Program-made: the position numbers | Assembly: GCA_964429275.1 (NCBI GenBank) | Contig: CAYSBJ010000003.1 | Span: 1 to 64,000 of the forward strand | Length of the DNA stretch: 64,000 nucleotides | From: an uncultured Pseudomonadota bacterium | Lineage (GTDB): Bacteria; Babelota; Babeliae; Babelales; JAUPTZ01 | Direction of reading: 5' to 3' | Shown here: piece by piece, positions 27,001 through 33,000 of the stretch | How positions within the stretch are numbered: position 1 is the stretch's first letter | How the letters are laid out: every line of letters begins with the position of its first letter

Positions 27001-30000
27001 TAAGGGGTTGGGGTGAGCTGCGCTTGCTCGGCCGTGCCAGAGTTCAGTGTTTTGAGGGCGGCATTCGTTTTAGTTATCGTTAAAATAGTGGTAGGGCGAG
27101 CGGATATGGCCCGCCACAAAAGAGTAAGATGCATACAGTCTCCGGTATGTGCCGTGCTGACTTATGCGTTGATGTAGGTGCCTACGATGAACAAACAGCG
27201 TTAGCTGTCATTGCGATAAACGAAGTGCCGAAGCAAGCCAGGAATGGAGTGAAATTTAGCTGGATTGCCACGCTGCGCTCGCAATGACTCGCTTTGCGCG
27301 GTCTTGAAAATTGATATCTTCAATGGCATTGATTACAGGATGAACTGTTGTCGCAAAATACGCAATCGTTTAGTTGTTAATCACTCTCACTACTTGGAGT
27401 GGTGATGCCGCAAAGAGAGGGCTCGTATCTTTGGTTGGCGGCAGCAAGATCTCTGAGAGTATGTCATCAATAGTTTCTACAAAGGTGACTTGCACGTCGG
27501 CCGGCATCTCTTTGAGTGCCTGGATGCTCTTGCGGTTTTCTTCCGGGACAAAAACGCGTTTAAGGCCGTGGTTGCGTGCCCCTTCAAGTTTTTGGTCAAG
27601 GCCACCAATAGCAAACGCATTGCCGTATAAATCTATTTCGCCGGTCATGCCATAGTCATGGCGTGTTGGACGTCCCGTAAGACAGGAAACAATAGCGGTA
27701 CAAAATGCAAGTCCTGCCGATGGGCCAGATTTTGGGGTGGCTCCGCGCATGGCGTGAATGTGGATATCAACGCCATTGAGGCTTATATCTTTTGGAAGTG
27801 CCATATTTGGTGCGTAGGTTGCCATGATGTGGTTAATGTTTGTTTTAACATAGCTTACCGCAGCGTTTGCAGATTCCTGCATATCTTCTTTTGGCAGTCC
27901 ACTTACTTTTACGTCTCCTCTTCCTCTGCGTGCCGTGACTTGAATAAGAAGAACGCCACCACCAGACATACTCCAATAGAGACCATTGCTTGTTCCTACG
28001 CTATCAACATTGAAAATAGCATCGTGAGTAAGTGGCTCGCCAAGGATAGCATCAATGTTGTTTGGCGTGACAACTAGGGGAGTAGTACTATTTAAGCTTC
28101 GTGCATACCGCGCAACAATTGTTTTGAGGCGACGCCCAAGCTGTCTCACTCCAGCTTCTTTGGTGTAGTTGTAGATGATTGTGTGAAGAAGCTCTGGTGT
28201 TATAAATGGCAGTGGGCTGAGGTTGTTTTGCGTATACAGTTTTGGAAGCAAATATTTTTGGGCGATTTCTACTTTCTGGCGTTCAGAGTAGCCAAGCATC
28301 TCGACCATGGTGAGGCGGTCCCAGAGTGGGTATGGAATTTGGCTTGTGTCGTTGGCTGTTGCAATGAAGAGCACTTTTGAAATATCAACAGGAACTCCCA
28401 AGTATTCATCAAGAAACTTAGTATTTTGCGTTGGATCGAGCACATCTAAGAGTGCATTTGCGATCGCAATATGCGGAATTTTGTCTATTTCATCAAGAAC
28501 TATAATGGTATTTTGCGAACCGGTGTCGATAAGTGCTTGTGCAATAACGCCGGTATGACCATTTTGGTAATCAGCCGAAAGACCTTTAATGTCGTATATT
28601 GAGGTGAGGCTGCTCATTGGGACGCGGATGAATTTCTTATTTAATGCTTTTGCCAGTGCTTGCGCTACTGAGGTCTTACCAACCCCTGGAAGCCCAGCAA
28701 GACAGAGTACTGAACCAGAGCTGCTATCGGTATTGCGTTGGGCCAAAGCGAGGTAATCGAGAATCGAGTCTTTTACTTCATCAACACTGTAGTGTGTTTC
28801 ATCAATTGCCGCAGCGACGGCGTCTAAGTTATAGTTCGTGGAGTCTTCTCCTGGAATCCATGGGAAATCAAGAACTGCGCTGATATAGGCACGAAGTTTT
28901 TCATGCGCTTCAGTTCGTTCACGGGTGGCATCAAAAGCCTCAATAGCGTCAAAAAGTTTCTTGCGTGCAGCAGTGCTGAGGTACGGCTCAATCTCTTTTG
29001 CCTTGCGTTTAAATTTGGCCAGGCTATTGTGAGCATTGCCAAGGAATGTTGATAGATTGTCAGTGGTAAAAATGATAGTTTCACCACGTAAATAAGCGCG
29101 TGCAAATTTACCGATCAAGAAATTGAGCTGGTGCGTTAAGCCGCGAAGGCCATCTTCAAACGTATACTTATCGATTATGAGGCCAATAACTTCGTTGCTG
29201 AACGACGGTTTTTGGCTCATAAGGCCACTTTTTTGGAGAAGGCGCGGGATAATTTTACTTTGCGCGATTTCGATTTTCTCTGCTTTTGTATATGACGGCA
29301 CTTGTACAATAATCATGCGATCACGAAGTGCCGATGGAATTTCTCGTTCGTTATTTGCGGTGGCAATGAACAGTATTTTTGAGATATTGAACGGAATGTT
29401 TAGGTAATCGTCAGTGAAGGCATAATTTTGTTCTGGATCTAAAGCATGAAGGAGGGCATCGGCGGGGGAGCCGTGTTGTTGGTTTTGTGTGCCCATTTTG
29501 TCTATTTCATCGAGTAAAATAACCCCGGATGCGCTTTGCATGTTCTTGATGGAGCGCATAATTTTTCCTTCGGCAGCATTAATATATGAGCGGCTTACGC
29601 CGGTAATATCTGATTGCAGGTGAACGCCGGCCAGACTGATGCGGGCCATTTTTTTGCCAAGTGCTTGTGCGATATGCTTACAAATGGAGGTCTTACCTGT
29701 TCCTGGGGCGCCGACCAGGCAGAGTACTAGTGGTGACCCTTCTGGTGTTACCATGCGTAACGCCAAGTGAGTGAGAATGATATCTTTCACTTGGTCCATA
29801 CCATACTGGTATTCATCAAGCATTTCGGCTACTTTTTCAAGGTCATACTCTTCATTCTTGGTTGAAGCAGCATCGGCCCATGGTAATGAAAGTGCGAAGC
29901 GTAAATATGCTTCAAGCCCTGGAGCTTCTAGTTGGTTTCCTTTGCTGCGGTCATACCGCTCAATAGTGTCGGACAAATAATTTGTTGTTACTTCCGGCAG

Positions 30001-33000
30001 TTGTAAGTCTTGTAGCTGTTGATGGAAGTTGCCTGCTAAGTCCTGATTTTCTTCTCCGCTCATGCCACTCGCTTTGCCTTGTTGAAGGATCAGTTCTACA
30101 AGAAGTTTGAGTTTGTTTTGGATGGTGGAGTTTTGTGTTAAAAATTCCAAGGCTTTGAGCGCACTTATTTCCAAATTCAATCGCTCGACGAGTGTTTGGA
30201 TGAATTGATTGCAGGTAGTAATGGTGCTGAGCTCTTTTTGCAGCGCCTTTGTTTTGTACCTACGGGCTAAGAGGTCATATATTTCTTCGATAGTTTTTAC
30301 TGATATGCGGTTAAAGAGAGGGGCATCTTTATAAAAACCACAGGCGCTTGGACTCACTTCAAGGCGTGTCTCTTTGTTGAGTGTGCCAGGAAGAGGAGTT
30401 GTGCGTATGGAATCGTGTGGGTTATACACTTGAACGATGTCTTTGAGTGTTATCGTATAAGTAGGTGGGTTTTTTTTGAGACCTTCTCCCAGCGTGCTAC
30501 TGCTGACAACGCCAGTTGCTCCCCATGCTGTTGAAATGTCCTCATCAGTTTTAAGCAAAAATGCTACTAATTCTTGTGTTGTTTGATAATGTGTAAGTTG
30601 ATTTTGTATTTCCGGCTGTTCGGAGGACACTGTCCGATTAGTACTTGGTAAAAGTAGCCCATCCACATATACGACTGGCAGTGAAAATACGGTGTTGGTA
30701 ATGATACCACAGGCGAGAGCGGTAAATAGTGATACTAAGTGCTTACGCATGAGAGTGTCCTTGCTTATGCTGTTTATTTGAACGTAATGAGTATATACGT
30801 CATCCTAATATGAAAATCATGGTTTTGGTAGTAGGACATGAGAAAGAACTTCCTGTACATCTTCTACAAACACTATTTTTATTCCTTCTGGCAATGCGCC
30901 CATTCCCTTAACATCTTTTTCGTTTTGTTTTGGGAAAATGACTTTAGAAAAGCCATGTTGTTTGGCGGCAAGTAGTTTTTCTTTAACTCCGCCGATAGGG
31001 AGTACATTGCCCTGCAAATTCAACTCGCCGGTCATGGCACAGTCGCTGCTGATAGGGCGCCCCGTGTATACCGAAAAAATCGAAGAAAGCAAAGTAATTC
31101 CAGCAGATGGCCCATCTTTTGGTATGCCGCCGGCCGGTGCATGAATGTGTAAATCATACTCTACAAACATCTTGGCATCGATATTGAAGTCTTTGGCATG
31201 AGAGCGGGCATAACTTACTGCTGCTCGTGCTGATTCTTTCATAACATCGCCGAGTTGGCCGGTCAAAATTAATTTGCCGGTTCCTGGCATTAATAATGCT
31301 TCCATCTGTAAGACTTCGCCTCCATATGGAGTCCAGGCAAGGCCGTTGGTAATGCCGACTTTGTGCGTGCCGATTTTTAACATGTCTATGGCACGGCGTG
31401 GGCCTAAGTGGTCAGCCAGCGAGCGCTTAGTAAAATTGATACCTTTTTTGTTTTCAATGTAGTGACGTGCAAATTTGGCACACAATTTTTGGAATAACTT
31501 TGAGAGTCCGCGAACCCCTGCTTCGCGGGTATATCCAGAAATAAGCTCATCAATGACATCTTTTGAGAAAGCAATTTCGGTTTTTGCTAGTCCTGAGTCA
31601 CCTATAATTGTAGGAATCAGGTGGCGTTTTGCGATTTCCATCTTCTCTTCTTTGGTATATCCAGCTAACTGAATGATCTCCATACGGTCACGCAATGGCG
31701 CTGGAATGGTGCTGAGATCGTTTGCTGTGGTCACAAAAAGTACTTTTGAGAAGTCAAAATGTACGCCCAAATAGTTGTCGTAAAATGCTTTGTTTTGCTC
31801 TGGATCCAACGCCTCAAGGAGTGCGGCAGAAGGGTCGCCTTTGTGTGATGAGCCGATTTTATCTATTTCATCAATAAGTAGCACAGGGTTAAGGCTGCCA
31901 GATTTTTTAATTGCTTGTACAAACCGACCGGGAAGGGCGCCAACATACGTCCTGCGGTGGCCACGTATTTCAGCTTCGTCATGGACGCCGCCGACAGCGA
32001 TGCGGGCGAAGGTTCGCCCCATTGCTTGTGCAATTGACTTACCAAGAGATGTCTTGCCAACACCTGGTGGCCCTGCAAGGCAGAGGATTGGGCTTGCGCA
32101 GTCGCTTTTTAGGTACTTGATAGAAAGGTAATCAAGTATCCGTTCTTTGACTTCATGGAGGCCAAAATGTCCCTCATCAAGAACCTTTTTAGCAACGGTA
32201 ATGTCATTATTGTCTTCTGTGAAATTGCCCCATGGCATACCAATTAGCCATTCAAGATGGTTACGCATTACAGTTGCTTCCAGCGAGTCACTTGCGGTCT
32301 TTTTAAGGCGGTTGAGTTGACGATTGAATTCCGTTCGTGCTTCATCGGAAAATTTGGTTTCAAGTGCTTTTTTTTCAAAATCTTCGATTTCTGAGTCGTT
32401 ATCGTCCCCCAGTTCTTTTTGAATGGCACGAAGTTGTTCTCGAAGGTAGTACTCGCGTTGTGATTTATTAATGGAATCACGGGTCGATGTGCGAATTTTT
32501 TCCTCTACCTCACTTGACGATACAAGGCGGTCAAGGTGGAGTACAATTGCGTCAAGAACCTGAGTAATAGATTCTTTTTCTAATAACTCCTGTGCCTGAT
32601 TAACTGGTAAGTTGAGATGCGAGAGAACAAAGTCGCTTACCTTTTGGGGGTTTTCAATTTGATAGATTATTGAAGTGAAATCTGGGCTAAATAATGTGTT
32701 ACTTGCCGGCAATTTTGTGACGCTAGTGCAAATGGTTTTGATATAGTAATCACGCTTTTCAGGATTGCAATCTTCTATCATTGGCGGGATTAACTCAACT
32801 TTTGCGCTGAGGCTTTCCTCGGTCGGCATAATATGATGAACGAGCGCTTTTTGTACCCCTTGCACCAACACTTTAATCCCACCATCAGAGAGCTCCATAA
32901 GGCGAATAATTTCACCAATGGTTCCGACTGCAAAGAGGTCGTCAATACTAATTGGTTCTCCATCATCATCGTAGTTGCTGTTCGGCAGTGTCTTTGTGGC

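What a model noticed while it worked through the whole genome (the two positions that open the first line are those of the whole stretch)
27370..30750. Lon protease with two complete AAA+ modules and a signal peptide
g00794 (1126 aa), next to an ordinary LonA (g00795), has a Lon N-domain, then two consecutive helical-plus-AAA+ modules, both with intact Walker A, Walker B and arginine finger, then the Lon Ser-Lys protease domain, and it starts with a signal-peptide-like segment. I read it as a new Lon subfamily, a single-chain 'double-ring' (type II AAA+) protease that is exported, probably to work where host ATP is at hand. All described Lon subfamilies (A, B, C, BA) have one AAA+ module, and no type II AAA+ unfoldase is known fused to its protease.
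Evidence so far: pfam.tsv: AAA 343-480 and 682-818, Lon_lid 850-886, Lon_C 894-1102. In an alignment of 16 homologues (992-1260 aa) the Walker A G347-T354 and G686-T693, Walker B D414/E415 and D753/E754, R478 and R812, S1011 and K1054 are invariant. AlphaFold2: mean pLDDT 80.7; beta N-domain 24-140, helices 150-335, AAA 340-555, helices 575-670, AAA 680-885, protease 900-1100. In a search of 5.8 billion proteins with residues 1-660, 16 clusters of 992-1260 aa carry the double build (those named are 'Candidatus Dependentiae'); the other listed hits are one-module Lon of about 630-860 aa. N-termini of 15 of the 17 proteins looked at start with a hydrophobic signal-like stretch. Lon classes: search listing and [...]
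(Added by a program. Inside this text positions count along the whole contig: contig position 1 is position 1 of the stretch shown here. "Call 12" and the like, gene names such as g00115 and contig names such as C1 are that model's own, and its searches are not shown. The text may have been shortened before it was handed on; [...] marks where a part breaks off. The agent that wrote the report below was given it as the finding of a first reader that could run no searches.)

Follow-up and report, generated by a model that had tools for sequence, protein, structure and literature searches.

The report
Signal-peptide Lon protease with two ATPase modules
A small parasitic bacterium encodes a Lon protease that carries two complete ATP-driven unfolding modules instead of one and begins with an export signal, a build not described for this well-studied enzyme family.

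Summary
ORF 27370-30750 (-) encodes 1126 aa: a 23-residue signal-like N-terminus, a diverged Lon N-domain, two complete Lon-type AAA+ modules (40% identical to each other), and an A-type Ser-Lys protease domain. An ordinary LonA lies directly upstream. All eight key ATPase and pore residues are intact in 26 of 26 modules from 13 orthologues. D1 is the best-conserved part.

Trees show one internal duplication of the [helical bundle + AAA+] unit in this family's ancestor, so it is not an ancestral state. The full-length orthologue occurs only in the window's genus (4 of 4 genomes, among 201 sampled from the phylum).

26 of the 150 best representatives in an exhaustive search have 2-3 Lon modules. 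These arose by several separate duplications. Some have no signal peptide, one has ankyrin repeats, and some have degenerate extra modules.

Export is plausible but unproven. The n-h-c pattern, charge bias, SecY, signal peptidase I, secretins, five ATP/ADP translocase genes and five more signal-bearing AAA proteins all fit it. The rival is an N-terminal membrane anchor with a cytoplasmic enzyme.

I found no paper describing a tandem-AAA+ Lon.

The parts
27370..30750 (-). Whole gene, 1126 aa (P0001): tandem-AAA+ Lon paralogue
30758..30761 (-). AGGA Shine-Dalgarno-like motif, 7 nt before the ATG
   Evidence: read
30682..30750 (-). Residues 1-23: signal-peptide-like segment. It has MRKH, a 13-14-residue hydrophobic core and VFS just before L24.
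   Evidence: Mean pairwise identity is 0.21 among orthologues while the pattern is kept. AF2 gives a helix at 2-21 with pLDDT below 50.
30055..30681 (-). Residues 24-232: diverged Lon N-domain (beta part plus helical part)
   Evidence: hhalign against the LonA N-region: 94.4%, E 8.5e-8, 182 columns, starting at residue 24. The 17 Foldseek matches at E <= 0.001, and two of the next three rows shown (3m65, 2ane), are Lon N-domains or full-length LonA. There is no Pfam hit.
29038..30060 (-). Residues 231-571: module D1 (helical bundle, AAA+ alpha/beta, lid). Walker A 347-354, pore Y389, Walker B D414/E415, N466, R478, R536.
28039..29037 (-). Residues 572-904: module D2 (same unit). Walker A 686-693, pore Y728, D753/E754, N800, R812, R869.
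27421..28038 (-). Residues 905-1110: Lon protease domain, A-type (PKSGPS1011AG, K1054)
30817..33177 (-). Ordinary LonA (P0002, 786 aa) directly upstream on the same strand, with no signal-like N-terminus
   Evidence: The same order is seen in L001, L002/L006, L007 and L017.
26334..27134 (-). Conserved downstream ORF (P0294, 266 aa, no Pfam family) that follows the tandem Lon in relatives

Best explanation
This is a real, conserved paralogue of LonA. The unit [C-terminal helical bundle of the N-region + AAA+ alpha/beta + lid] was duplicated once inside the gene. The chain therefore reads: signal peptide, Lon N-domain, D1, D2, Ser-Lys protease.

By homology with LonA it most likely forms a hexamer. 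In that hexamer two stacked, catalytically competent ATPase rings thread substrate into one protease chamber (inferred).

The N-terminal 23 residues most likely act as a cleavable Sec signal. The enzyme would then leave the bacterial cytoplasm and work in the periplasm or on the host side, where ATP from the host is available to this energy parasite (inferred).

My odds for each step: real gene and two-module architecture 0.97; two-ring hexamer 0.7; export 0.55; action in the host cytoplasm 0.3.
For: Architecture:
- Two AAA and two Lon_lid stretches plus Lon_C.
- Halves 39.7% identical, E 1e-68.
- 26 of 26 modules from 13 orthologues keep the Walker A K/T, pore aromatic, Walker B D/E, sensor-1 N, Arg finger and sensor-2 R.
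- D1 alpha/beta is the most conserved region (0.70 mean pairwise identity, against 0.61 for D2 and 0.49 for the protease).
- The N-domain is homologous to the LonA N-domain from residue 24 onward.
- The best structural matches for the whole model are full-length LonA: 7fd4, 7p6u, 7ypk.

Origin:
- The D1 clade (support 0.988 / 99) and the D2 clade (0.998 / 99) are sisters.

Export:
- 8 of 13 orthologues are SP-like by my heuristic, 4 more have a hydrophobic N-terminus, and 1 is N-terminally short.
- The best predicted cut, 23/24, coincides with the start of N-domain homology.
- In 10 of 12 orthologues the N-flank holds one or two K/R and no acidic residue (one search counts +2 to +3, adding one for the amino end). 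P0006 has an acidic upstream extension and P0013 has no N-flank. In all 12 the 15 residues after the uncharged stretch are net zero or negative, which points to N-in, C-out.
- The hydrophobic core is 11-16 residues in 11 of 12, short for a membrane span.
- Both ordinary LonA paralogues lack such a segment.
- Only 5 of 230 single-module Lons are flagged. Three of those look genuine and two look false. The three (P0149, P0223, P0236) fall in the same clade.
- The genome has SecY, signal peptidase I, three secretins, a T2SS F protein with pseudopilins in the window, and five TLC nucleotide-transporter genes.
- Five further PF00004 AAA proteins in this genome also start signal-like, while the ClpB-like protein does not and FtsH starts with its membrane span.
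- A relative carries ankyrin repeats behind its signal (P0015).
- In Dependentiae, ankyrin proteins and AAA-peptidase fusions with signal peptides are read as secreted into the host (PMC4378268 and PMC6561590, passages read).
Against: - No trained signal-peptide predictor was available. The heuristic is mine, and it flags 278 of 902 ORFs (31%) in this genome.
- No exported Lon turned up in the papers I searched.
- The periplasm of free-living bacteria has no ATP. A 1126-aa subunit would have to fold and form a hexamer outside the cytoplasm.
- AF2 draws residues 2-21 as a helix, which could equally be an uncleaved anchor.
- LonBA is proposed to be held to the membrane by about 20 hydrophobic N-terminal residues while working in the cytoplasm (PMC9569914).
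- Signal-less two-module Lons with both modules intact exist (P0130, P0134, P0140). Two modules therefore do not require export.
- pTM of 0.38 means the model says nothing about how D1 stacks on D2.
Confidence: 0.5

Rival explanations
1. The hydrophobic N-terminus is an uncleaved membrane anchor. The two-module Lon sits on the cytoplasmic face of the inner membrane and uses the bacterium's own ATP, for example to extract and degrade membrane or secretory proteins. This would resemble FtsH or the proposed LonBA arrangement.
For: - LonBA precedent for an N-terminal hydrophobic anchor (PMC9569914, passages read).
- AF2 predicts helix 2-21.
- The uncharged stretch, including the first N-domain strand, is 23-26 residues.
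- ATP supply is then no problem.
- One orthologue scores TM-like (P0011), as does the unrelated two-module P0132.
- About a third of this proteome is signal-bearing, so a membrane-proximal quality-control protease would make sense.
Against: - Charge bias points the other way. K/R lie before the hydrophobic core in 11 of 12 orthologues, and the flank after it is net zero or negative in all 12.
- Cores of 11-16 residues are short for a span.
- Small residues sit at -3/-1 just before the conserved start of the N-domain.
- Part of the 23-26-residue uncharged stretch is the first beta strand of the Lon N-domain, so it is not free to span a membrane.
Confidence: 0.27
2. The protein is exported or not as above, but only one ring is the motor. 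D1 would serve mainly for assembly, regulation or substrate selection, as D1 does in some two-ring AAA+ proteins, rather than as a second translocating ring.
For: - In other multi-module Lon-like proteins the extra modules have lost catalytic residues. In P0017, P0127 and P0138 only the middle module is intact. This shows that extra modules can take non-motor roles.
- Published comparison describes the module next to the protease as the main motor in ClpB (PMC6722904, passage read).
Against: - In this family D1 keeps every catalytic residue and the pore-loop aromatic in 13 of 13 orthologues.
- D1 is more conserved than D2.
Confidence: 0.15
3. The two-module gene is an artefact: a mis-assembly, a fusion of two neighbouring Lon genes, or a decaying pseudogene.
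For: Tandem Lon genes do lie side by side here. One database protein with two near-identical modules comes from a plant genome and may be a gene-model artefact (P0161).
Against: - There is no protease or N-domain between D1 and D2.
- Intact full-length orthologues at 52-96% identity occur in L001, L002/L006 and L007, and contig-cut pieces in L008 and L017, all with the same neighbours. A further copy at 40% identity is a database protein, P0013.
- Contigs from two runs bridge the joint.
- Conservation is strong and no stops are present.
Confidence: 0.02

Closest known systems
LonA (endopeptidase La, MEROPS S16, TIGR00763)
   Same: It shares the Lon N-domain, the helical region, a Lon-type AAA+ module with lid, and the A-type Ser-Lys protease with Pro before the Ser and Ser-Lys 43 positions apart. 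It passes the TIGR00763 cut-off.
   Different: It has two complete AAA+ modules instead of one, a signal-like N-terminus, and an N-domain too diverged for Pfam's model.
LonBA (Bacillus subtilis 'LonB')
   Same: It has a hydrophobic N-terminal segment ahead of an A-type protease (PMC9569914, passages read).
   Different: LonBA lacks the long N-terminal region and has one AAA+ module. Its segment is read as an anchor, whereas here the charge bias and core length fit a cleavable signal.
Two-ring Clp/Hsp100 unfoldases with ClpP (ClpAP, ClpCP)
   Same: Two AAA+ modules sit in one chain upstream of a compartmental protease (PMC6722904, passage read).
   Different: In those systems the protease is a separate protein. 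That their two modules belong to different AAA+ lineages is recalled knowledge, not from a call. Here the protease is fused and both modules are Lon-type sisters.
Signal-bearing AAA ATPase-Ulp1 peptidase fusions of Babela massiliensis (Dependentiae)
   Same: They come from the same phylum, combine a signal peptide with an AAA ATPase and a peptidase in one chain, and are predicted to be secreted into the host cytoplasm (PMC4378268, passage read).
   Different: They use a different peptidase (C48 rather than S16). The passage mentions a single AAA ATPase domain. They are not Lon.
Plasmodium HSP101 of the PTEX translocon
   Same: It is an AAA+ unfoldase of an intracellular parasite that travels the secretory route and works outside the parasite's own cytoplasm (search listing and abstracts only). 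That it is ClpB-like with two rings is recalled knowledge.
   Different: It is eukaryotic, has no fused protease, and acts as a translocon motor rather than a degrading enzyme.

Membership tests
LonA | N-terminal Lon substrate-binding domain | tested here: met
   hhalign 94.4%, E 8.5e-8 over 182 columns. The 17 Foldseek matches at E <= 0.001 are Lon N-domains or full-length LonA, on a low-confidence model of pLDDT 58.7. Pfam PF02190 itself does not hit.
LonA | One AAA+ module per chain | tested here: not met
   Two full modules at 231-571 and 572-904.
LonA | A-type protease domain: Ser-Lys dyad, Pro before the Ser, Lys 43 positions after the Ser | tested here: met
   GPS1011AG and K1054, both invariant in 13 sequences. 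The criterion is from PMC9569914.
LonA | NCBIfam TIGR00763 equivalog cut-off | tested here: met
   736 bits against 608.05, reached in two stretches.
LonA | Soluble cytoplasmic (or organellar) location | tested here: inconclusive
   The N-terminus is signal-like. There is no experimental localisation.
LonBA | No extended N-terminal region; an N-terminal anchor directly before a single AAA+ module | tested here: not met
   About 210 residues of Lon N-domain and two modules follow the hydrophobic segment.
Two-ring (tandem) AAA+ unfoldases | Two nucleotide-binding AAA+ modules in one polypeptide, both with Walker A and B | tested here: met
Two-ring (tandem) AAA+ unfoldases | Assembly into two stacked hexameric rings | not testable with these tools
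   The monomer model has pTM 0.38, and a hexamer exceeds the size limit of the complex tool.
Sec-type cleavable signal peptide | Positive n-region, 7-15-residue hydrophobic core, small residues at -3/-1 | tested here: met
   P0001: MRKH, core 14, VFS before L24. 8 of 13 orthologues pass my heuristic. The heuristic is not a trained predictor and flags 31% of the genome's ORFs.
Sec-type cleavable signal peptide | Actual cleavage and translocation | not testable with these tools
   SecY and signal peptidase I genes are present. No protein data are available.

The most novel reading that the evidence does not exclude
Dependentiae export a set of ATP-driven machines through Sec and a secretin pathway. 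This genome has six signal-bearing AAA+ proteins, including this double-ring Lon. Once outside, they run on host ATP. The tandem Lon would be an effector that unfolds and destroys host proteins inside the host cell. Its second ring would have been gained repeatedly in this lineage because it adds grip on folded eukaryotic substrates.
Probability: 0.25. Interest if true: 0.88.

Novelty: new variant of a known kind. Interest (0 to 1): 0.7.

Why it matters
Lon is one of the most studied ATP-dependent proteases, and every described subfamily has one AAA+ module per chain. A natural Lon with two intact modules fused to its protease allows a direct test of what a second ring adds: grip, processivity or gating. 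That question is otherwise studied only in the two-part Clp systems.

It also bears on the published conjecture that LonA keeps the remnant of a lost first module (PMC6722904). This family shows that a second module can be gained by duplication.

If the signal peptide is real, this would be an ATP-dependent protease working outside the bacterial cytoplasm. Together with five other signal-bearing AAA proteins in the same 1.2-Mb genome, it would point to a way of attacking host cells that has not been examined experimentally.

Tried and rejected
- BLAST of residues 1-230 against the neighbouring LonA found nothing useful, and Pfam PF02190 did not hit. The profile comparison settled the N-domain instead.
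- The N-domain-only AlphaFold2 model from 5 sequences was poor (pLDDT 58.7). I use its fold matches only as support.
- The whole-chain model has pTM 0.38, so I drew nothing from the relative placing of D1 and D2.
- No RNA holder was listed for the locus, so there is no evidence on expression.
- The listing of cluster members named only 4 of 20 clusters.
- The Atlas gave no taxon for the high-GC three-module group, so that group's taxon remains unknown.
- The Atlas gave only sub-threshold leads (0.80; PilN, GspL_C) for the downstream ORF P0294.
- A lipoprotein signal was considered and rejected. The Cys in LAC is not preceded by a lipobox-type -3 residue (the lipobox pattern is recalled, not from a call) and is absent from P0005-P0006.
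- Fusion of two neighbouring Lon genes was rejected because no protease or N-domain lies between the modules.
- A single ancient duplication shared by all Dependentiae-like multi-module Lons was rejected by the AU test (p 4.6e-50 and 2.9e-52). The groups were named after I had seen the tree, and concerted evolution between modules could mimic separate duplications.
- Complex prediction was not used. A hexamer exceeds its size limit, and no partner claim is made.

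
Full report
**What is there.** The ORF at 27370..30750 on the minus strand is open for 1126 codons. 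An AGGA lies seven bases before its ATG.

Pfam finds two AAA stretches (best 343-480; AAA_5 682-812), two Lon_lid stretches and one Lon_C domain at 894-1102. NCBIfam's LonA model TIGR00763 scores 736 bits, above its cut-off of 608, in two stretches.

Residues 231-572 and 573-890 are 39.7% identical over 295 residues (E 1e-68). Each is 34-38% identical to the corresponding part (about residues 256-592) of the ordinary LonA encoded directly upstream at 30817..33177.

No protease or N-domain lies between the two modules. This is therefore an internal duplication of one unit and not a fusion of two genes.

The unit corresponds to LonA residues ~256-592. That is the last helices of the N-terminal helical region, the AAA+ alpha/beta subdomain and the lid.

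**Is it real and maintained?** Contigs of two sequencing runs of one study bridge the D1/D2 joint.

Intact full-length orthologues at 52-96% identity lie in L001, L002/L006 and L007. Contig-cut pieces lie in L008 and L017. A further relative at 40% identity (P0013) is held only as a database protein.

The gene order is conserved. The ordinary LonA precedes the tandem Lon in L001, L002/L006, L007 and L017. A 265-280-aa ORF of no known family follows it in L001, L002/L006, L007 and L008.

In an alignment of 13 orthologues, both Walker A and B motifs, both sensor-1 Asn, both Arg fingers, both sensor-2 Arg, the D1 pore-loop Tyr, and the Ser1011/Lys1054 dyad are invariant.

Scored module by module, 26 of 26 modules keep all eight key positions. 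D1's alpha/beta subdomain is the most conserved region of the protein. Its mean pairwise identity is 0.70, against 0.61 for D2's and 0.49 for the protease. D1 is therefore not a decaying copy.

**The N-terminal region.**
- Pfam's Lon N-domain model does not hit.
- A profile-profile comparison aligns residues 24-225 with the LonA N-region end to end (94.4%, E 8.5e-8, 182 columns).
- A fold search with a low-confidence N-region model gives 17 matches at E <= 0.001, and all are Lon N-domains or full-length LonA. Two of the next three rows shown (3m65, 2ane) are Lon N-domains as well, followed by cereblon's Lon-like domain.
It matches full-length LonA structures best.
- Its pTM is too low to say how D1 sits on D2.

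**Origin.**
- A FastTree of 219 Lon-type modules and an IQ-TREE of 48 both place the family's D1 modules in one clade and its D2 modules in another. The two clades are sisters (supports 0.988/0.998 and 99/99).
- This means one duplication in the family's ancestor and not an ancestral two-module state.
- A signal-bearing single-module Lon (P0149) groups with D1. This could mean later loss of D2 or faster change in D2, and I did not resolve which.
- Among 201 genomes sampled across the phylum, all of one order, the full-length orthologue is found only in the window's genus (4 of 4 including the window's genome).
- Three other genomes (G036, G159, G028) hold different two-module Lons.
- Most genomes show four matches, the count that two single-module Lon genes would give against this two-module query.
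- The window's genome has three Lon genes: this one and two ordinary LonA.

**Wider than reported.** An exhaustive search of 1.84 billion representatives returned 23,975 hits. Of the 150 best, 26 have two or three Lon-type modules by my module HMM. So do 38 of all 268 proteins I held. That top list favours multi-module proteins, because a two-module query scores them twice.

Within-protein modules are each other's nearest relatives in:
- P0123, P0016, P0124 (three modules), P0126 and P0132 in both trees;
- P0015 in the FastTree only; the IQ-TREE leaves that pair unresolved.

An AU test rejects a single origin of all first modules (p 4.6e-50) and of all last modules (p 2.9e-52). There are two caveats: the groups were named after I had seen the tree, and gene conversion between modules could mimic repeated duplication.

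Other variants include:
- P0015 (labelled Candidatus Babeliales), which has ankyrin repeats in place of the N-domain.
- P0124 (labelled Candidatus Dependentiae), which has three modules.
- A high-GC group (P0017, P0127, P0138 and relatives, some on contigs of 5-8.5 Mb). It has three modules, of which only the middle one is catalytically intact, and no signal.
- P0130, P0134 and P0140, which have two intact modules and no signal.
- P0147 (Elusimicrobiota, 3865 aa), which holds two [module + protease] units.

**Is it exported?**

For export:
- Residues 1-23 read MRKH, then a 13-14-residue hydrophobic core, then TNTVFS, directly before the first strand of the N-domain.
- Among the orthologues this segment is the least conserved in sequence apart from the C-terminal tail (0.21 against 0.17), yet it keeps the pattern.
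- My heuristic of 13 SP-like. It hydrophobic without meeting all rules and 1 TM-like. One is N-terminally short.
- K/R lie before the core in 11 of 12. The 15 residues after the uncharged stretch are net zero or negative in all 12, which by the positive-inside rule puts the body of the protein outside.
- Of 230 single-module Lons only 5 are flagged. Three look genuine and lie in the same Dependentiae-like clade.
- The genome encodes SecY, signal peptidase I, three secretins, a T2SS F protein with pseudopilins in the window, and five TLC nucleotide-transporter genes. Host ATP must therefore reach at least the periplasm.
- Five more PF00004 AAA proteins of this genome start signal-like, one of them with two AAA domains. 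The ClpB-like protein does not, and FtsH starts with its membrane span.
- For Babela massiliensis, nine signal-bearing AAA-Ulp1 peptidase fusions and 79 of 126 ankyrin proteins were read as secreted into the amoeba, with type II secretion as the only system found (PMC4378268, passages read).
- For Chromulinavorax, 44% of CDS and 78% of ankyrin proteins carry signal peptides, though lon is listed there as cytoplasmic (PMC6561590, passages read).

Against export:
- The heuristic is crude and flags 31% of this genome's ORFs.
- My searches found no exported Lon in print.
- An N-terminal helix could be an anchor, as proposed for LonBA (PMC9569914).

I put export at about 0.55 and an anchored cytoplasmic enzyme at about 0.27.

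**Mechanism.**
- Shown: two intact Lon-type ATPase modules with pore-loop aromatics, and an A-type Ser-Lys protease, in one chain under purifying selection.
- Inferred: a hexamer with two stacked ATPase tiers over one chamber, both tiers pulling substrate. The diverged N-domain (0.32 identity in its beta part) would select substrates different from LonA's.
- Inferred, less firmly: Sec export, signal cleavage near residue 23, and action where host ATP is present.

**Comparison and novelty.**
- It meets the LonA criteria for the N-domain, the protease type and the NCBIfam score. It fails the 'one AAA+ module' criterion.
- The reviews and structural papers I read state that Lons carry one module. 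They class only ClpA, ClpB, ClpC and ClpE as two-module proteins (PMC6722904 and PMC9569914, passages; PMC2605481, passages listing domain architectures).
- Four full-text searches found no tandem-AAA+ Lon. Subscription-only papers are not covered by that library.
- The sequences themselves are public and are labelled simply as Lon, S16 protease or AAA ATPase.
- I rate it a new variant of a known kind. The tandem build is of clear interest to the AAA+ protease field, and the export reading is of higher interest if confirmed.

Noticed in passing
G000 loci L018 (C1:255697-257520 -), L019 (C2:252845-254416 -), L020 (C2:97657-99618 -), L021 (C1:348370-350094 -), L022 (C2:217025-218323 -): Five further PF00004 AAA proteins of the same genome begin with signal-peptide-like N-termini. 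L018 (607 aa) has two AAA domains plus AAA_lid_3. The regions ahead of the AAA domains have no Pfam family.
   Followed up: partly
P0017, P0127, P0138, P0136, P0254, P0266 (database proteins, high GC, some on contigs of 5-8.5 Mb): These are Lon-like proteins with two or three modules. In the three-module ones only the middle module keeps the catalytic residues. They have no signal-like N-terminus, and their taxon is not known.
   Followed up: partly
P0015 (also L009, genome G036): A Babeliales Lon with a signal-like N-terminus, ankyrin repeats at 50-132 in place of the Lon N-domain, two intact modules and Lon_C.
   Followed up: partly
P0147 (3865 aa, Elusimicrobiota) and P0215 (2597 aa): Giant proteins that each contain two separate [Lon module + Lon protease] units. 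P0147 starts signal-like.
   Followed up: no
window 26334-27134 (-): A 266-aa ORF with no Pfam family and a central hydrophobic segment. It follows the tandem Lon in L001, L002/L006, L007 and L008. The Atlas gives only weak leads (0.80) to PilN and GspL_C-like clusters.
   Followed up: partly
window 46366-51491 (+): A type II secretion / type IV pilus-like cluster: T2SS protein F (46366-47577), two ORFs with the N-terminal methylation motif (48776-49183, 49096-50352), and neighbours of no known family.
   Followed up: no
window 34633-36657 (-) and 36675-38759 (-): Two adjacent ORFs of 674 and 694 aa with near-identical signal-like N-termini (MKNK[VA]FLLILSLLTFGTTA...), apparently a tandem duplicate pair. 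The first was scanned and has no significant Pfam family. The second was not scanned.
   Followed up: no
G000 C2:125397-126740 (-) and C2:126957-129422 (+): The genome's second ordinary LonA (821 aa) lies back to back with one of the five TLC nucleotide-transporter genes.
   Followed up: no
L011 (genome G028) 2-5459: An array of Lon-like genes on one strand: the end of a Lon, then a 910-aa signal-like two-module Lon, then a 465-aa signal-like protein with a weak module match.
   Followed up: no
P0161 (1157 aa, labelled Brassica napus): A Lon N-domain plus two nearly identical Lon modules in a plant gene model. This may be a gene-model or assembly artefact rather than a true tandem form.
   Followed up: no
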